DNA from: Octopus sinensis
Lineage: Eukaryota
Length of the DNA stretch: 64,000 nucleotides
NCBI RefSeq assembly: GCF_006345805.1
Contig: NC_042999.1
Span: forward strand, 113,026,001 to 113,090,000
Direction of reading: 5' to 3'
Shown in pieces: positions 2,216 to 63,728 of this stretch (position 1 is the stretch's first letter; each line of letters begins with the position of its first letter). A program made the position numbers and the translations under genes. The notes under the pieces were generated by a model, which did not search any database, had not been told where the DNA came from, and saw only the letters and a list, made by a program, of their open reading frames with translations.

Positions 2216-3011
2216 TATACATAAACCCCGCCCGAGAAACTAAAAACAAGAGCAAAGTTTATGTACCATTCCAAAAACCGGTACTCTTTTAATCTGGTTG
2301 CAACAAAACAAAAACTATTAGACACGCTTGATTAAATACCCTCTTAATCACAGCACTCTATCTAAAGAGTAATTCAACAGTACATTTTGGTCGTTCACAC
2401 AAGTTCATAGCAGATGGCTACAACTTCCTGCACCAATACTGTAACATTAATGTATTTTTATACTGAAAAAAATTGTGCATATTTTTAATGCTTGTTCTTC
2501 AAAGATAGCTTCTTGAATTTCTAGAATTTCGTTTGACAGTAATTTCTCTTAGTCACTGCGTTCTATAATAACAGTCAACGAACCAACAGTAAATTTTCGG
2601 TTGTTCACACAGCAGCCGCAATTTCATCGTATAAACATACCGATAATAAAGTCAGGTTATTCTGTACCCTCAAAAGTTCAGCACCACATGTACAGAACTC
2701 CGAGAGAACACGTTAAGAAATATGATAAGTTAAAAGACAGAAAAAAAAATAATGCAAAACAAGAACACGGATTGCAGTTTTAACGAAATGTGATAATCCC
2801 TTGTGAGTAACGCTTTTTACCATTTACCTGATATACTCACACCTGTTGGTAATAGATGTCAGTAACTTCTGGTATGGGTGCCAATATTGGAACAGCAAGA
2901 CATTTTTACACGCAAGGAATTGTGGAATATTTTTCATATTTTTCCTACTCTTTAAAGACAGCGCATGTCAGTGTACGGTAAAGCCCCTTGGGAGACGATG
3001 GAAAACTTTAT

Positions 3012-3395
3012 GGAAACACTCCGTCGGTTACGACGATGAGGGTTCCGGTTGATCCGAATCAACGGAACAGCCTGCTCGTGAAATTAACGTGTAAGTGGCT
3101 GAGCACTCCACAGACACGTGCACCCTTAACGTAGTTCTCGGGGATATTCAGCGTGACACAGAGTGACAAGGCCGGCCCCTTGAAATACAGGTACAACAGA
3201 AACAGGAAGTAAGAGTGAGAGAAAGTTGTGGTGAAAGAGTACAGCAGGGATCGCCACCATCCCCTGCCGGAGCCTCGTGGAGCTTTTTAGGTGTTTTCGC
3301 TCAATAAACACTCACAAAGCCCGGTCTGGGAATCGAAACCGCGATCCTATGACCGCGAGTCCGCTGCCCTAACCACTGGGCCATTGCGCCTCCAC
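3012..3395 (-). mobile_element. tRNA-derived SINE, full length, with 12-bp TSD
   Basis: Minus-strand head with box A (TGGCCCAGTGG) and box B (GGTTTCGATTCCC). GGAAAACTTTAT is repeated at 3000-3011 and 3396-3407. Its 3' half is shared with the SINE at 29633-29958. Confidence 0.9.
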
Positions 3396-3607
3396 GGAAA
3401 ACTTTATATGGGTACTAAGAATAAATGAATATAGTAGAGGGAGGGAGTCAACTTTTCTTTAAAATCTTAAAAAAATTCTTTCAATTTTTATTCCATGCAC
3501 AAATTGTTTCGTAATATTGATTTCAAATTTTTGGCACCAGGCCAACAGTATCAGGGGAGAGGACAAGTCACCTCGACCTGTCTGCTCATATGAGTGGTTG
3601 ATACTAA

Positions 3608-4005
3608 GGCGGCAAGCTGGCAGAATTGTTAGCACGCTGAGCAAAATGCTTAGCGGGATTTCGACTGCCGTTACGTTCTGAGTTCAACTTCCGCCGAGGT
3701 CGACTTTGCCTTTCATCCTTTCGGGGTCGATTAATTAAGTACCAGTTACGTACTGGGGTCGATATAATCAAGTATCCGTTTGTCTGTCCTTGTTTGTCCT
3801 CTCTGTGTTTAGCCCCTTGTGGGTAGTAAAGAAATATGTATTTCATCCGTCTTTATGTTCTGAGTTCAAATTATGCCGAGGTCGAATTTACCATTCATCC
3901 TTTCGGGGTCGATAAAATAAGTACAAGTTGAACACTAGGGCCTATTTAATCGACTTATTCTCTCCCCCAATTTCACTGATCTTGTGCTAGAATTTGAAAT
4001 CAATA
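3608..4005 (+). mobile_element. SINE family A (GGCGGCGAGCTGG head), tandem dimer
   Basis: Core GAGTTCAAATTCCGCCGAGGTCGACTTTGCCTTTCATCCTTTCGGGGTCGATAAA occurs twice here and many times in the window. Confidence 0.85.
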
Positions 4006-18661: not shown

Positions 18662-19602
18662 CGCAGCAATTGCATATGTTTTTAGTTTTCTCCGAACTTT
18701 TGTTTACTTACCTTGTACTAGACATAAACCAAAGTCTGTGCGATGTTTGCTTCATTTATAGACTGAAATACTATAGATCATAGATCAGACGTTTATATGC
18801 ACACATGATAATATTGGCCAGAAGTAAACAACTCTATCGTCTACATGAAAGTTAACAATCATTTCTTATATATGCTTAATACAATCTAAGTGAATAACTT
18901 CAATATTCATATATATATATATAAGTTTAGGATTCAAGTGAATCAGGTACTTATATGATAAAGCATAGGGTTGGTTGAAGAACAAAAAAACAAAAAAACA
19001 AAATGGAAATCGTATGTACAACGAAATCAGAGGAACAAATACATACGTACCGAAGTCCAGACAAATTATTATTCCAGTTGTATATACAGTCAACTGCATC
19101 AGGCTGAGTGTATTATGAGTCTCAAGGCGGTATTTAGGAACACACTTCACCAATTGTACCGCACTTAACAGATTCTGGATTCACACTGATCGCAAGTTCC
19201 GAGTAAGGTGAATAATTAATAAATAACAGCAAATGGATAAAGGTTCATTCACTACAACTGTTTCCAACGAGTTTTTTTATTGATGAATAGAGATATTACA
19301 TCATGCGAAAAAATAATGTTTTCATCAGGTGAACATACACGAATTACACATTTAAAAAACATTCCTGAAATCACCAGTTTGTGCCACTTCATGATTCCCT
19401 GACCAGTAACAGCCATTTGATTATTAGGGTGTCCGTACACATGGTTAGCACACTTATCGCGAATATAAGAAGTGTGGATTCAAGTCACATGCGTAATGAC
19501 ACTCTTTTTCCATCGAGGGCTTATATGCCCCAATATTAGACACTTTTCTTTTGTCAGTACACGGTGATTGCTTATAAGCTTTAAGCTTAAATAATTATTA
19601 TT

Positions 19603-43329: not shown

Positions 43330-45560
43330 TACAATACGACAACCGCGCACTCTATAGCCATGCAAAAAATCAATGCTGTTAATGGGAGCATAATTTGAAA
43401 GGGTTCCACTAGGGCAACTGGGATCAAGTTACAGATAACATAGAGCAATTTGGATTTAAGTATAAGTGTCTCCTACGTAACCTGTTACTCACGACATTTG
43501 AAAACGAATTGTTTCGCGTAATGCGTAGGACTAGTTCAAGAACCACATTAGTCCCTTTTTAAAAAGACCTAGAACGTCAAGGATATATGTAACATGAGGA
43601 TCATACAAGTCTATCAGATAAAACTGAGAGTTTGTATCAGGTGGATAAAACTTTTTACTGTAGTTTCATGCACAATGTTATGACAAATACCAATAATAAT
43701 AAGAACCATAGAACTTTGAAGGAGATAAATATTATGGGATAAAACATTGATTCTATGTGTTCGACCGAACTGAACCACTAATTACGGAAACTCTCCACTT
43801 CACTCCCATGAACTTGGCAAACATTTACGATTAAAGCTGATGCAGATAAAAAAACAAGTAAGCTAATTTTTGATAAATTTACCAATAAAATTGGATCAAT
43901 AGTACCATTAAATTTTTTAATCATTCAGCTTCACTCAACTGGTTTAAAAACAAGAAAGTAACAAAATTTGTCAAATTTAGCATCCAAGACTATTACTCTT
44001 CGATCACTTTACTGTTAATTAACCTCACTATCAAATTTGCCGAGTCCATTCCTACAATTAAAAACCAAGAAACCGAAACAATTGTACAGGTTCGGAAATT
44101 CTCGTAGATTCTAAACATGGCCAATAGATGGATAAGACATCTAGAATACTAACCGATGATAACATAGGAGCGAGTGACTCAGCAGAAGTCACAGACTTTA
44201 TTGGATTATATATTCTTTCCAGACTCCATATTTTTCCAGCATTGAAGGGGACTGTACGCAATGATAGTTTACATATTCTCACTAATTACACTCTATAAGC
44301 TTAGAAAGATTTTGAATGGATATCATGAATTTTTTTTCAAGAACTGTGGAATTACTATCACTGTTGATGCTAATTCAGTAAAAATCTTATCTGAATCAAC
44401 GACCTCCACAATCATTGTAGATAATCAAAGGAGACACTTAACTACATCCACAGACTGTCAAACCAACCTACTAAATTACAAAAATTTTAGATATGAACGT
44501 TTTTCTGTAACTTTCTATTATTTCAGCTAATGAAAAGATTTTTAATTACAACTCAAACCACTGTCATGAAGATAAAAGTGATTTTAGCCAAAAGAGAATA
44601 TAACTAGGAATCTTAGAAACAGAACTGAAAAATCTGCTGATACAATTTCGACTATGGTAAACCGCCAGACTTATATTTATAATAGTCTCCTTCCTACTCA
44701 CGAAACATTTCTGCACACAACATGGATATTATTCTATATTTAACATTAATACGATAAAACTAGCTTTCTGAAACACACCCAACTTCCAACAAAATATTCC
44801 TTTGTTTAATGTATCCAGACTAGAACGAGACATTAGGGAAGATAATAGTAACCACAATTACCCCAATAAAAATGTATCCCTATAACAATAACAACAGCTA
44901 TGATAACAGTGATGGTAGCATAGTCGTCATCATAACTTTCAACAGCAATAGGTACAGTAGTAATAATGATGACGAGGATTCTTTTTATTTAATAATAACT
45001 ATTTTTGAAATAGCATAATGGTTTTTTAATAACAATAACAACAATAATTATAGCAGCAGTAATGGTAATCTTAGTAATAACGATGGATGGCAACAACCAC
45101 AATAGTAATAATAATAATAGCACTAGCAATGACGGCAATGGATATTATGTCAACGCAATATCCATAGCAGTCATGGCATATAGCAACTATAATTACAATT
45201 TTAACAATTCAAGTGCCTAACTTGGGGATATCATATTATAAATATATAATCAAAACTTCTAGCTCAATCAATGTATATATTAGAGAAACTGTAAATAGTT
45301 TTTATGCATAATATTATTCTTACGCGCAGTCGTTTGGAAACCATGTAAGTACAAGTGCTACATCATTATCAAAATGCTTCCGGAAACTCAAAACCCCAAA
45401 CACATCTTACCACTTGAATTGGAACATCTTAGCTAAATTCAAAACCTTATAAGAGAAATAAACAATTATGTAACTTCTGCATCACTGAAGCACCCGTAAT
45501 CCTTTTCGCTAAAGTTCAGCTCATTAATGGTAATATGGTGAGGGCTTCCTCGTTTGTACA
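43330..45560 (+). mobile_element. Decayed Penelope-like element (RT, linker, GIY-YIG)
   Basis: Remnants SDKTESLYQVDK, NWFKN..KFVKFSIQDYYSSI, IGASDSAEVTDFIGLYILSRL (cf. MGSYDGAEVCELVGLYIL), NYIHRLSNQP, YYSIFNINTIKLAF*NTPN, then NVYIRET. Confidence 0.8.
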
Positions 45561-45714
45561 TTGTAGGTACTCTACATACTTGCACTTTAATCTAAACGAA
45601 TAGAAAGACTATATATATGTGCCGATCGAAGTACATTGAGTACACACACACATACATATGTGTGTGTGTGTATATATATATCTGTCTGTCTGTCTATATA
45701 TATATATATTATAT

Positions 45715-54377: not shown

Positions 54378-55145
54378 GGTTGTCTGATCAATAAGCATCC
54401 GGACTGTTGCTATAGTAACGAAGGTAAAGTAAAACCGCTTGGCGCAGGTTGATCCTGAACTCTGCTCTGCATGCGAACTAAGTTTTAACGTACTAGTTCA
54501 CTTTCGCTGTTTACAGCAGTGCTTGAAAGGAAGGTGTGCAGCGTTTGACCGTCGCATTAACCATGACAGAAAAAGTTGAGCTGAGAATCTGCATCAAATT
54601 TTGCCAAAAGCTTGGTGATACCTGCTCAGAGGCCTACGCAAAGTTTTCAAAACGTTTTCAACGTTCTAGACACAATCATTGAAATCATGAGCAACTGAAA
54701 CCCGAGTGTCTTTTTGGTCAGCTGAAAGTAGTTTTGGCACAAACTTAGCAGACACGCGTCTCATACTCAAATCTTCCGTGATAATGGACTGAACTGAACC
54801 CTAACTAGTCTTCACATCCTCTAATAACTCACGGACAGTGATTCGACGATTTCCTCTCACAGCTGCACGCACATCTGCGATGTTTTTCTCAGTTCTACTG
54901 ACTGCAGGTCTTCTAGAACGTTTGTCAATATCGACTTTTTTCGGCCATCTTGGAAACCTTTGAACCACTCGTACACTTGTGTGCGGCCCATACACTCTTC
55001 TTCATACACTTCCTGCAACTTTGCGCAGACCTTTGAGCAGGTATCACCATGACAGAGAAAGCAATGCGAGTATCACACGCTACACACCTTCCGTTTAGCG
55101 TCGTTACTATGGCAATAGTCTGAATACTTACTGATCAGACCCCCG
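54376..55145. mobile_element. mariner-derived element made of two inverted 5' halves
   Basis: Ends GTCTGATCAATAAGCATCCGGACTGTTGCTATAGTAACG and CGTTACTATGGCAATAGTCTGAATACTTACTGATCAGAC. Plus strand encodes MTEKVELRICIKFCQKLGDTCSEAYAK; minus strand encodes GDTCSKVCAKLQEVY..TQVYEWFK..NRRITVREL..MRRVSAKFVPKLL. Confidence 0.87.
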
Positions 55146-60215: not shown

Positions 60216-60269
<54 letters not shown>

Positions 60270-60570
60270 TATATTGTATGTATATATATATATATATGTA
60301 TGTATTTGAGTATATATATATATATATATATAATATTATATATATATATATTATATATATAAAATGTGAAATAGAAAGATGAATAATCTTGTTGCAGATT
60401 AATCAAAGTTTTTAACCGATACCTTGGTAGCAAAAATCACAGCAGAAGACAGCACGGTTGGAGGTACAACCATACGGTGTTGCAACCGTGCGTTGGTGCG
60501 GATAATTGAATTTTAATATTATTAGTGAATTGAAGAAATGGAGTTGAACGAGATTGAACAGAAATCGTTT

Positions 60571-60663
60571 TATTTCATTCTACACGTGTTTCGAAAGGCA
60601 CAATTTACCAAATTCCGATTGAATAATGAGACCATATTGTGTCTTTCTCTTCAGGAAGAAATA
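60571..60663 (-). ncRNA. Type I hammerhead ribozyme (intact core)
   Basis: Minus strand reads TATTTCTTC-CTGAAGA-GAAAGACACAAT-(31 nt)-ATTGTGCCTTTC-GAAA-CACGTG-TA-GAATGAAATA. Confidence 0.82.
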
Positions 60664-60972
60664 GGAAACCGTTGAAAAAACAAAAACAGAACAGAGGCGG
60701 AGCAAAACAAATCGAACTAGGCTCCTAAGAGCCCATGGCCAAACTGTTTATCAGTGTATGTTGAAAACGGGTGGGGGTGCGTTGAAGATTTTAACGGGTT
60801 AGGCAGCGGTCATTCCGGTGGGTGACCGCTGCCTGACCCGTTAAAATCTTCAACGCACCACCACCGTTTTCAACATACACTGATAAACAGTTTGGCCATG
60901 GGCTCTTAGGAGCCTAGTTCGATTTGTTTTGCTCCGCCTCTGTTCTGTTTTTGTTTTTTCCAACGGATTTCC

Positions 60973-61062
60973 TATTTTTCCTGAAGAGAAAGACACAATA
61001 TGGTCTCATTATTCAATCGGAATTTGGTAAATTGTGCCTTTCGAAACACGGTAGAATGAATA
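60973..61062 (+). ncRNA. Type I hammerhead ribozyme copy (1-nt loss in helix III)
   Basis: CTGAAGA at 60981-60987 and GAAA at 61043-61046, followed by CACGGTA instead of CACGTGTA. Confidence 0.65.
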
Positions 61063-61109
61063 AATAAAACGATTTCTGTTCAATCTTCGTTCAACTCCAT
61101 TTCTTCAAT

Positions 61110-61177
<68 letters not shown>

Positions 61178-61467
61178 ATATGTAATATGTATATATTTAT
61201 ATATATACACATTTAAATTATTATATATATATACCACATTTATCAATTTGTGTTGCAAAATTCCTGATGTGAATCGTGTGTTGAAACAGATATTGTTGTA
61301 TTTCAGGACGGTCATTTTTTTTGCCAAATAAACACACGCACTATATATTTTTCTTCACTCGTTTTTAGTTTTTATGTTATTATTCTAACCTCATGTCCAT
61401 TGTCCGGAAATCATTCGTCACACATCTGTGACGAAATATATATATATGTGTGTATATATATATGTGA

Positions 61468-61519
<52 letters not shown>

Positions 61520-61581
61520 TGTATATATATGTATATATATGTGTATATATATGTATATATATGTGTATATGTATGCATATA

Positions 61582-61644
<63 letters not shown>

Positions 61645-61778
61645 TTTGAATTGTTCTTTTTGAACTTATTTTTCCCATATATATATATATATATAATATA
61701 TATATAATATATATATACTATATATTATTTGGTGAATTGAAGAAATGGAGCTGAACGAAGATTGAACAGAAATCGTTT

Positions 61779-61870
61779 TATTTCATTCTACACGTGTTCG
61801 AAAGGCACAATTTACCAAAATCCGATTGAATAATGAGACCATATTGTGTCTTTCTCTTCAGGAAGAAATA
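61779..61870 (-). ncRNA. Type I hammerhead ribozyme copy (GAA instead of GAAA)
   Basis: Same motif as 60571-60663 with one A missing, possibly a homopolymer error. Confidence 0.65.
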
Positions 61871-62465
61871 GGAAATCCGTTGGAAAAAACAAAAACAGAA
61901 CAGAGGCGGAGCAAAACAAATCGAACTTGGCTCCTAAGAGCCCATGGCAAAACTGTTTATCAGTGTATGTGAGAACCGGTGGCTGAAGATTTTAACGGGT
62001 CAGGCAGCGGTCAATCATGTGGGTGAGGGTGTGTAGATGTTCTTTGTGACCGAGAATAAAGTTCTGACTATTTAAGGAATATGGATGTTTTATAAGGGGC
62101 GAGAAAAAATCTACTTAGAGACATGTGTGTGTATACTGTTCTATATATGTGTGCTGGCGTAGGGGTAGAAAACATTTTTGTGTACGTGTGTGCGTTTGAT
62201 CGCTCGGCTGTCAGTGGCTAAGCCGCTCTCCACAATGGCTACTGCAGTAAGAACCGTTGGGTGGCAGAGAAAAAATATATATTATGTTTTATGTGTGTGT
62301 GTGTTCGTCTGAGCCTGCCTTGTCAGGTAACCCCCCGTTGTCAAAAAACCAAGCCCCGTTTATCTTACAGGAGTAATTCCCCTTGCAGTGGTTAATCGTA
62401 AATATCTTAAGGCTATTTCAGAATTTGTTACCAAGGGCTATGGGTGCCGGTATTATTTATAAACG

Positions 62466-62829
62466 CTATTTAAAAGCCAGATAAGTGTAACGCCGCCAAT
62501 GGGGGCATCGAAAAGCGACTGTAAAAGTCCGTTTACCATCCGGCCTTGGCAAACAAAATATGGAGAGTTCGGAGACACAAAGGTTGCACTGCCTTCTGCC
62601 CCTATCAAATGGGAGGGCCACCGAAAATTGACCATTCCAGCCTGTAGCTTGAGTTCGTATCCTTCAGTCGCCATATTAGCTTGCTGAGTCCCGTGGTCTG
62701 GCGCTTGTTTATGTCCCGAAAAGTTGCGTAATGGTTGGAGACTCGCAAAGCCAATCTTGACGATGAGGCCCTACAATAGTGAAGACAATCTGAGTCCGTG
62801 TAAACCTTGCATTGGTAGACGGCGTTTTT
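62466..62829 (-). pseudogene. PLE GIY-YIG endonuclease C-terminal remnant (Neptune-like)
   Basis: KNAVYQCKVYT..(VG)..LALRVSNHYATFRDINKRQTTGLSKLIWRLKDTNSSYRLEWSI..PFDRGRRQCNLCVSE..FRCPHWRRYTYLAFK* across frameshifts. Confidence 0.85.
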
Positions 62830-62902
62830 GATCTTGGAGTTCGCCGACGTGAATCTTATTCTGCTAGGATTAGTTTCTGAAATTAGAACTGCGTTCCTGT
62901 CC

Positions 62903-62995
62903 TATTTCTTCCTGAAGAGAAAGACACATTATGGTCTCATTATTCAATCGGATTTTGGTAAATTGTGCCTTTCGAAACACGTGTAGAATGAAATA
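62903..62995 (+). ncRNA. Type I hammerhead ribozyme (intact core)
   Basis: CTGAAGA at 62912-62918, long helix II, GAAA at 62974-62977, palindromic CACGTG, GUA triplet with predicted cut after 62985, helix I TATTTCTTC/GAATGAAATA. AATAAA overlaps the 3' end. Confidence 0.85.
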
Positions 62996-63207
62996 AAACG
63001 ATTTCTGTTCAATCTTCGTTCAGCTCCATTTCTTCAATTCACCAATAATATTTTAATTTCAATTATCCGCACCAACGCACGGTTGCAACACCATATGGTT
63101 GTACCTCCAACCGTGCTGTTTTCTGCTGTGATTTTTGCTACCAAGGTATCGGTTAAAACTTTTGATTATTAATCTCTGCTACAAGATTATTCATCTTTCT
63201 ATTTCAC

Positions 63208-63258
<51 letters not shown>

Positions 63259-63387
63259 GAAAATATAAGTTCAAAAAGAACAATTCAACTTTTGAGAGGT
63301 CCAAAAAGAGAGATTAATGATTTCTAATAAAGATTCATCATATTCATAAAAAGCAGCCAGAGTAAGTAATATCAATATGAGAATAGT

Positions 63388-63728
63388 AGTTGAAAAATAT
63401 CGTTATAGTTATAAATATACTATAAACATGTATAAAAAATGGAGGAGAAAAAGATGTTGAATCAAAATTAGATTTAATGCAAAATTGGATTCAATACATA
63501 CGCATATTTTAATGGACAATACAAATATGTAAGAAATACAATACAAATATGTAATTGTAAATCATAGTAATTATAATTTTTTTCTTACATATTTGTATTG
63601 TCCTTAGAAACGTGCGTATGTATTGAATCCAATTTCGTATTAAATCTATTTTGATTCAACATTTTTTTCTCCTCCATTTTTTATATTTTTTATGGTAGAT
63701 TTTATACCTATAACGATATTTTTCAACT
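63388..63728. repeat. Older, diverged fold-back palindrome in (TA)n, ~150-bp arms
   Basis: AGTTGAAAAATATCGTTATAG...CTATAACGATATTTTTCAACT. The loop duplicates ACAATACAAATATGTAA. GAAACGTGCGTA (hammerhead-like 3' half) lies at 63607-63618. Confidence 0.8.

What the first reader, a model, noticed from the sequence alone, without database searches (positions are those of the whole stretch)
60361..63210. Penelope-like cluster with four hammerhead ribozymes having a long helix II and a palindromic helix III
Seen: four copies (60571-60663 -, 60973-61062 +, 61779-61870 -, 62903-62995 +) of helix I / CUGAAGA / 12-bp helix II with a ~31-nt loop / GAAA / CACGUG / UA, inside pseudo-LTR repeats beside a GIY-YIG remnant. 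Established: PLE pLTRs carry type I hammerheads whose short palindromic helix III is thought to work through dimers. Inference: the extended helix II and large loop are atypical of minimal PLE hammerheads and may supply tertiary contacts or a protein site. Copies on both strands mean transcription in either direction meets a cleavage site with AATAAA right behind it.
Basis: partly seen in the sequence, partly recalled or inferred. Interest (0 to 1): 0.75.

Follow-up and report, generated by a model that had tools for sequence, protein, structure and literature searches.

The report
Long-armed hammerheads in Hydra-type retrotransposons
These four motifs are the ends of two broken copies of a common animal jumping gene, each carrying a hammerhead RNA predicted to cut itself only as a pair; its second arm is about twice as long as in the published relatives I could read, and tens of thousands of similar long-armed motifs occur in this genome.

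Summary
Real, mostly known, with one new twist. The stretch is two 5'-truncated, inverted insertions of a young Hydra-type Penelope-like element (2,843 exact-pattern hammerhead copies) in (TA)n. Copies 1 and 4 have intact type I hammerhead cores; copy 2 lacks a helix III base, copy 3 a core A. Palindromic helix III and dimer cleavage are published for such elements. New: a 55-nt helix II arm. It covaries across 26 subfamily sequences (3 compensatory events on a tree), lies outside the published search descriptor (at most about 26 nt), and exceeds the hammerheads of 57 related metagenome loci (10-29 nt). A loose pattern for 30-60-nt arms gives 36,750 hits against 1,715 control. Cleavage and the arm's function are untested.

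The parts
60364..60825 (-). Insertion 1, long arm: 3' UTR end, pseudo-LTR with hammerhead and the ~155-nt tail
   Evidence: 94% to positions 3520-3977 of full-length copy L031; long end
60571..60663 (-). Hammerhead copy 1, intact core (core and helix III 60581-60654; predicted cut between 60581 and 60580)
60823..61113 (+). Insertion 1, short arm: inverted pseudo-LTR without tail
   Evidence: 95% to element positions 3533-3816; short end
60973..61062 (+). Hammerhead copy 2, helix III one base short, palindrome broken
61722..62905 (-). Insertion 2, short-ended arm: endonuclease remnant, 3' UTR, pseudo-LTR without tail
   Evidence: 94% to element positions 2611-3825
61779..61870 (-). Hammerhead copy 3, one A missing from the GAAA box
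62469..62901 (-). Frameshifted C-terminal GIY-YIG endonuclease remnant of the element's ORF
   Evidence: tblastn 75% and 66% to residues 754-874 and 846-899 of the 899-aa open frame in L118
62900..63211 (+). Insertion 2, long arm: inverted pseudo-LTR with hammerhead and tail
   Evidence: 97% to element positions 3674-3979
62903..62995 (+). Hammerhead copy 4, intact core (core 62912-62918, helix II arm 62919-62973, GAAA 62974-62977, palindrome 62977-62984, predicted cut after 62985)
60221..60360 (.). (TA)n-rich target flank left of insertion 1
   Evidence: sequence; 51 of 52 family ends run into (TA)n
61114..61721 (.). (TA)n-rich spacer between the two insertions
   Evidence: sequence
63212..63255 (.). 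(TA)n flank right of insertion 2
   Evidence: sequence

Best explanation
The stretch is two truncated, inverted insertions of a Hydra-type Penelope-like retrotransposon whose pseudo-LTR carries a type I hammerhead with a conserved 55-nt helix II arm, predicted to cleave only when two copies pair through the palindromic helix III. Shown: the parent element is about 4.0 kb, pseudo-LTR with hammerhead, ~270-nt leader, one RT plus GIY-YIG ORF of about 900 aa, ~630-nt 3' UTR, second pseudo-LTR; it inserts in (TA)n; genomic 3' ends fall at two fixed places about 60 and 217 nt behind the cut site, one of each per inverted pair. Inferred: the protein cuts (TA)n and primes reverse transcription at these two sites of the RNA, the two partial cDNAs join head to head, and this makes the both-strand layout. 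Inferred: the ribozyme is a slow, dimer-gated processor of tandem or read-through transcripts of full-length copies (possibly before circularisation), and the template actually copied is uncut or re-ligated, since cDNA runs through the site. Inferred: in these window copies a read-through transcript would fold back on its antisense arm and mask the ribozyme. The long arm is kept as a structure by selection; my best guess for its job is a contact with the bulged helix I or the element's protein, which is untested.
For: Full-length copy L031 and 899-aa open frame L118 with RW, DKT, YRDD, no CCHH, CxxC..E..N..CxH, as listed for Hydra in PMC8557442 section 11. Core kept in 8 of 8 copies picked by RT similarity that reach the pseudo-LTR (11 of 11 core positions invariant against 143 of 622 in the 3' UTR; a ninth, L124, breaks off earlier). 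Helix II: 7 of 12 pairs with double-sided change, 83% of cells paired; whole structure 47 double-change cells against 19.3 shuffled, 0 of 500; 3 compensatory branches on a flank-only tree against 0 in six slid registers. Helix III: 75 of the first 100 listed hits are strict palindromes, 13 more pair with G-U, 10 different palindromes (my hand count; about 6 expected by chance); monomer helix III probability 0.04, 8-bp duplex -10.3 kcal/mol; dimer fold about 15 kcal/mol below two monomers. Ends: 26 long, 26 short, 0 other of 52; 15 of 16 inverted pairs long plus short, the 16th cut by the locus edge. Two RT start sites explain the PLE tail in vitro and uncut RNA is the main template (PMC11167929 passages).
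Against: No cleavage data of any kind. No genomic footprint of cutting: 10 truncations start at the cut site against 12 one base before and 15 (of 30 examined, 44 found) one base after. Only 3 independent compensatory events; 2 of the 12 helix II pairs are often unpaired (10 and 17 of 26 rows), the terminal hairpin has no double-sided change, and the measure 'further pair types' did not beat shuffles (354 of 500). The CxCx5C linker of Hydra is absent and the element is longer than published Hydra families. No tree with published PLE references was built. Pfam found no RT or GIY-YIG family. Some subfamilies carry a G-U-containing helix III or G10.1-U11.1. Published PLE hammerheads cut slowly even as dimers (PMC4209133).
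Confidence: 0.8

Rival explanations
1. The long arm is only tolerated: the hammerhead needs a few closing pairs, and the rest is a neutral insertion held paired merely so that it does not misfold the core.
For: A helix II of 2-4 pairs suffices in related elements (PMC3088659 passages); unrelated long-arm families share no obvious arm sequence and vary from 33 to 60 nt; no conserved cross-pairing found; about a third of the genome's motifs have short arms.
Against: Arm length stays 53-59 nt and its distal pairs covary while RT diverges to about 85% and the 3' UTR to 23% invariant positions; long arms occur in at least three distinct Hydra-type lineages and two tandem arrays here.
Confidence: 0.4
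2. The motif is no longer mainly a ribozyme but a fold recognised by the element's protein next to the RT start sites; cutting is negligible in vivo.
For: Every insertion examined spans the site uncut and none starts there in excess; in the anole element catalytic mutants did not affect insertion in vitro and no RNA reads ended at the site (PMC11167929).
Against: All 11 catalytic positions are invariant in 8 of 8 RT-picked copies and palindromy is kept through many different sequences, which fits selection for dimer catalysis.
Confidence: 0.15
3. One reading: the four copies form a two-way cleavage and polyadenylation gate for host transcripts crossing this place.
For: One intact core on each strand; AATAAA or AGTAAA follows the site in 24 of 26 subfamily rows.
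Against: The layout is that of 16 other-or-same inverted insertions and is drawn as typical in PMC8557442 Fig. 2 legend; antisense arms mask helix II; partners on the same strand are damaged; copies are 94-97% like a young family.
Confidence: 0.05

Closest known systems
Hydra clade of Penelope-like elements (Craig et al. 2021, PMC8557442; seen: passages, section 11, supplement parts 1-2 and search hits), e.g. Hydra-1_Obim, Hydra-1_Crog
   Same: C-terminal GIY-YIG without CCHH, DKT, RW, CxxC and CxH around E and N, (TA)n targets, hammerhead in the pseudo-LTR, inverted truncated copies, tail at one end; Hydra-1_Crog also has a bulged helix I.
   Different: About 4.0 kb and 899 aa against under 3 kb and about 700 aa; CxCx5C linker replaced by an S/N-rich stretch; arm 55 nt against about 9-25 nt in File S2; tail about 155 nt against 30-40 bp. 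Hydra-1_Obim is another family (2507 bp, 7-bp stem, 8-nt loop).
Minimal and D. virilis-type PLE hammerheads (Cervera and De la Pena 2014, PMC4209133; seen: parts 1-2 of 4, supplement passages)
   Same: Type I, helix II larger than usual, small palindromic helix III, dimer model, pairs on opposite strands 100-700 bp apart.
   Different: Their descriptor allows stem II 3-7 bp and loop 3-10 nt, so a 55-nt arm falls outside; helix III here is 8 nt; no extra base between positions 9 and 10.1 in this family.
PLE-X1_sMoe and PLE-X1_sTam hammerheads of spike mosses (File S2 of PMC8557442)
   Same: Long helix II region (9 bp plus 35-nt loop in sMoe), flagged as deviating from the canonical structure.
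   Different: Plant, endonuclease-less, rDNA-targeted Chlamys-related elements; single listed cases without covariation analysis in what I saw.
Poseidon element of Anolis (Frangieh et al. 2024, PMC11167929; seen: passages)
   Same: Two RT start sites define a tail; AT-rich target; uncut RNA serves as template.
   Different: Other clade; hammerhead overlaps the ORF start; tail short.
Animal non-LTR retrozymes (PMC7229834 passages; bioRxiv 10.64898/2026.07.22.740005 part 1 of 5 and passages)
   Same: Type I hammerheads with weak palindromic helix III; tandem arrays with 44-45-nt arms exist in this genome (L115, L116).
   Different: The window's copies belong to a protein-coding element and are inverted, not tandem.

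Membership tests
Type I hammerhead ribozyme | CUGANGA, GAAA and UH core with helices I-III, helix I open | tested here: met
   Copies 1 and 4 exact; copies 2 and 3 one base short; core invariant in 8 of 8 RT-picked relatives
Type I hammerhead ribozyme | Site-specific self-cleavage | not testable with these tools
   No raw RNA reads listed; no truncation excess at the site
Type I hammerhead ribozyme | Match to an Rfam hammerhead model | tested here: not met
   No hit at E up to 5; short-arm motifs of this genome were not hit either at E up to 0.01, so the test has little power
Dimer-type PLE hammerhead | Short palindromic helix III, unstable as monomer | tested here: met
   Monomer probability 0.04, duplex -10.3 kcal/mol; 15 of 17 clusters with helix I of 3 bp or more are strict palindromes
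Published minimal PLE hammerhead (min-HHR descriptor) | Stem II 3-7 bp, loop 2 3-10 nt, core GAAANNUH without helix III | tested here: not met
   55-nt arm and 8-nt helix III against descriptor
EN+ Penelope-like element | Single ORF with RT and C-terminal GIY-YIG between pseudo-LTRs; inverted truncated copies; tail at one end | tested here: met
   L031, L118; ends
Hydra clade | DKT, RWK-like motif, no CCHH, CxxC and CxH around E and N | tested here: met
   DKT, RW (third residue L), CxxC..E..N..CxH, no CCHH; compared by eye with published alignment text
Hydra clade | Insertion into (TA)n | tested here: met
   51 of 52 ends
Hydra clade | CxCx5C linker and length under 3 kb | tested here: not met
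   Linker absent, 3979 bp; two other long-arm lineages here keep it (L131, L142). Hence 'Hydra-type', a derived lineage
Hydra clade | RT phylogeny with reference PLE clades | not tested
   Reference proteins were seen only as paper text and were not available to the tools
Non-LTR retrozyme | Non-coding head-to-tail tandem units of a few hundred bases | tested here: not met
   Inverted arms of a coding element

The most novel reading that the evidence does not exclude
Long-armed type I hammerheads are an undescribed structural subclass, the majority form in this genome (about 35,000 motifs, many families, invisible to the published descriptor), in which an internal loop of the extended helix II replaces terminal loop 2 as the docking partner of helix I, or binds the element's own reverse transcriptase, and so times cleavage against reverse transcription.
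Probability: 0.35. Interest if true: 0.72.

Novelty: new variant of a known kind. Interest (0 to 1): 0.5.

Why it matters
What PLE hammerheads do in vivo is stated as open in the papers read. This genome offers young, high-copy families with open full-length frames, a sharp two-end footprint and natural arm lengths from about 13 to 60 nt, so arm length, dimer dependence and template use can be tested side by side. It also shows that descriptor-based hammerhead censuses would miss most such motifs in at least one animal genome. The locus itself is an ordinary pair of dead insertions.

Tried and rejected
Rfam: no hammerhead hit in the window stretch or in 7 other loci. Pfam: nothing significant for 3 proteins. 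Expression: no RNA holder listed on record; four guessed-RNA contig sets cover the stretch, some contigs cross the cut site, no joints or pile-ups; contigs cannot show ends, so no evidence either way. Runs of three other coded organism labels hold the family with mostly the same variants and added no covariation; a fourth gave nothing. Cut-site footprint: none. Poly(A) signal inside helix II: 6 of 18 families against 2.3 expected, but 7 of 18 on the opposite strand, rejected. Pseudoknot or cross-pairing in the arm: the co-change scan's best non-nested pair had 3 events at 85% pairing, too weak on 26 rows. One search used a structure string off by one column and is void; one search is the corrected count. 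The clade model scores other long-arm families only 16-25 bits, like short-arm ones, so they share the core, not the arm. No hammerhead found behind the older remnant at 43919-45588. PLE link of most other long-arm families not shown: no endonuclease hit within 1.6 kb upstream in the stretches fetched. Lunse et al. 2017 and Arkhipova et al. 2017 could not be read (titles only); they and unseen supplements (file 1 of PMC4209133, figures, bioRxiv supplements) may hold long-arm cases.

Full report
Observation. The four motifs are at the stated places. Copies 1 (60571-60663, minus) and 4 (62903-62995, plus) have the whole core: helix I of 3 pairs, a bulged U and 6 pairs; CUGAAGA; a 55-nt arm closed by G10.1-C11.1; GAAA; an 8-nt palindrome; cut site after A. 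Copy 2 has lost a T in the palindrome and copy 3 an A in GAAA. The arm starts with 5 pairs, an A-C mismatch and 6 pairs (4 plus a mismatch in copy 4), and the rest is predicted to fold into short stems. Rfam does not report it.

What the stretch is. The window lies in a 2.72-Gb animal genome; a cephalopod is my inference from a named relative among the protein hits and from earlier notes. The repeat is a young, abundant family: the 40 scored candidates of 1,185 were about 99% identical and an exact hammerhead pattern has 2,843 hits against 0 control. A full-length copy (L031, 3979 bp) reads pseudo-LTR with hammerhead, leader, RT and GIY-YIG ORF, 3' UTR, second pseudo-LTR, (TA)n; L118 has an open frame of 899 aa. 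Mapped on L031, the window holds two insertions, 60364-61113 and 61722-63211, each made of two 5'-truncated arms joined head to head. The protein has RW, DKT, YRDD, no CCHH and CxxC..E..N..CxH, and is 33-40% identical to ten ~600-800-aa relatives aligned. These are the marks given for the Hydra clade (PMC8557442 section 11), except that the CxCx5C linker is replaced by an S/N-rich stretch and the element is longer. I call it Hydra-type; no tree with references was built.

Insertion footprint. Of 52 distinct hammerhead copies examined, 26 end about 60-70 nt behind the cut site and 26 about 217 nt behind it; 51 run into (TA)n and one into the ORF. Of 16 inverted pairs 15 have one long and one short end, and the 16th is cut by the locus edge. 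Inverted copies and a one-sided tail are described as typical (PMC8557442 Fig. 2 legend), and two RT start sites explain the tail in an anole element (PMC11167929 passages). So the both-strand layout is a by-product of insertion. Folding the window's own read-through RNA drops helix II pairing from 0.54 (copy 4) and 0.84 (copy 1) to 0.00 once the antisense arm is included (equilibrium model). Copies do not begin at the cut site more often than beside it: 10, against 12 and 15 of 30 examined. The copied RNA is therefore uncut or re-ligated.

Is the ribozyme under selection? Of 9 loci picked by RT similarity, 8 reach the pseudo-LTR; in these all 11 core positions are invariant, against 31 of 55 in the arm and 143 of 622 in the 3' UTR. 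The monomer helix III has probability 0.04, the 8-bp duplex -10.3 kcal/mol, and a dimer fold lies about 15 kcal/mol below two monomers. In the first 100 listed genome hits 75 are strict palindromes of 10 kinds and 13 more pair with G-U (hand count). Palindromic helix III and dimer cleavage are published (PMC4209133 parts 1-2; passages in PMC6765202 and PMC3088659).

The long arm. On 26 subfamily rows chosen from 59 distinct sequences, 7 of 12 proximal pairs show double-sided change and 83% of cells pair; the whole structure has 47 double-change cells against 19.3 shuffled (0 of 500) and beats all slid registers. Against this: rows are related, a flank-only tree gives only 3 compensatory branches (0 in slid registers), pairs 4 and 7 are often open, and the tip hairpin shows no double change. 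Most of these rows were picked by a motif that fixes the core and the first pairs. The arm is unusual: published Hydra hammerheads have stem II of 3-7 bp and loops of 3-10 nt (File S2), the published descriptor allows about 26 nt at most, and of 76 related loci from metagenomes 57 gave a hammerhead, all with 10-29 nt; among the other 19, five had a core start behind the ORF, three clearly short, two unresolved. Two spike-moss elements with long loops are the only precedent I saw. In this genome a loose pattern gives 36,750 hits for 30-60 nt (control 1,715) and 17,858 for 5-29 nt (control 1,254). These are pattern counts for one helix III length, not checked ribozymes: of 31 sequence clusters sampled, 17 had a helix I of 3 or more pairs, 15 of them palindromic, 13 with an arm more stable than shuffles (z below -1), and 14 clusters had not. 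Long arms are tied to Hydra-type endonucleases in three lineages and occur in two tandem arrays; for the other families the parent is not shown.

Mechanism. Shown: anatomy, copy number, ends, conservation, covariation. Inferred: protein cuts (TA)n, primes at two RNA sites, cDNAs join inverted; the hammerhead is slow and dimer-gated, so enough uncut template remains; it acts in transcripts with two sense copies, not in these inverted remnants. Guess: the arm's irregular zone 4-7 pairs from the core faces the bulge of helix I, or the arm binds the element's protein near the start sites. A neutral, merely self-paired arm remains a serious rival.

Literature. Six searches gave no paper on long-arm PLE hammerheads or cephalopod hammerhead censuses; two key papers were not held and figures are not visible, so novelty of the arm is probable, not certain. 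The scan's notes hold nothing by sequence or by all words; same-genome notes concern permuted hammerheads and retrozyme arrays.

Verdict. A known element type and ribozyme type with a new, genome-wide structural variant; the locus is ordinary. Interest 0.5.

Noticed in passing
window 19253-19328 (-): Another, decayed long-arm hammerhead-like motif of a different family (57-nt arm, helix I of 7 pairs).
   Followed up: partly
window 43919-45588 (+): Older broken Hydra-type RT and endonuclease remnant; no hammerhead found behind it.
   Followed up: partly
window 61643-61680 and 63257-63290: About 36 bp of the right flank of insertion 2 appear inverted on its left side between (TA)n runs; perhaps fold-back synthesis at the palindromic target, or an assembly effect.
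   Followed up: partly
window 63380-63725: Fold-back inverted repeat (arms 63465-63549 and 63568-63652, 85% complementary), possibly another inverted remnant.
   Followed up: no
window 54527-55134: Mariner-like transposase fragments by eye in the ORF list.
   Followed up: no
L115 1464-2725, L116 1506-2685, L063: Tandem arrays with periods of about 400 and 445 nt whose units carry hammerheads with 44-45-nt arms; arrays of about 557 nt (L141, L146-L148) carry 25-26-nt arms.
   Followed up: partly
L101, L108, L111, L042 (helix I flanks): One long-arm lineage has UGUA and AUCCA-like letters in helix I that resemble the loop-1 docking motif of canonical metazoan hammerheads (recalled, not from a call), with a UAAU-containing internal loop in the arm as possible partner.
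   Followed up: no
L118 residues about 655-790: The family's protein has lost the CxCx5C linker yet still inserts in (TA)n, although that linker has been linked to targeting.
   Followed up: partly
L227-L302: 76 Hydra-like loci from metagenome contigs, 47 distinct hammerheads, many with 9-10-nt helix III: the clade looks wider than the 27 families listed in File S1.
   Followed up: partly
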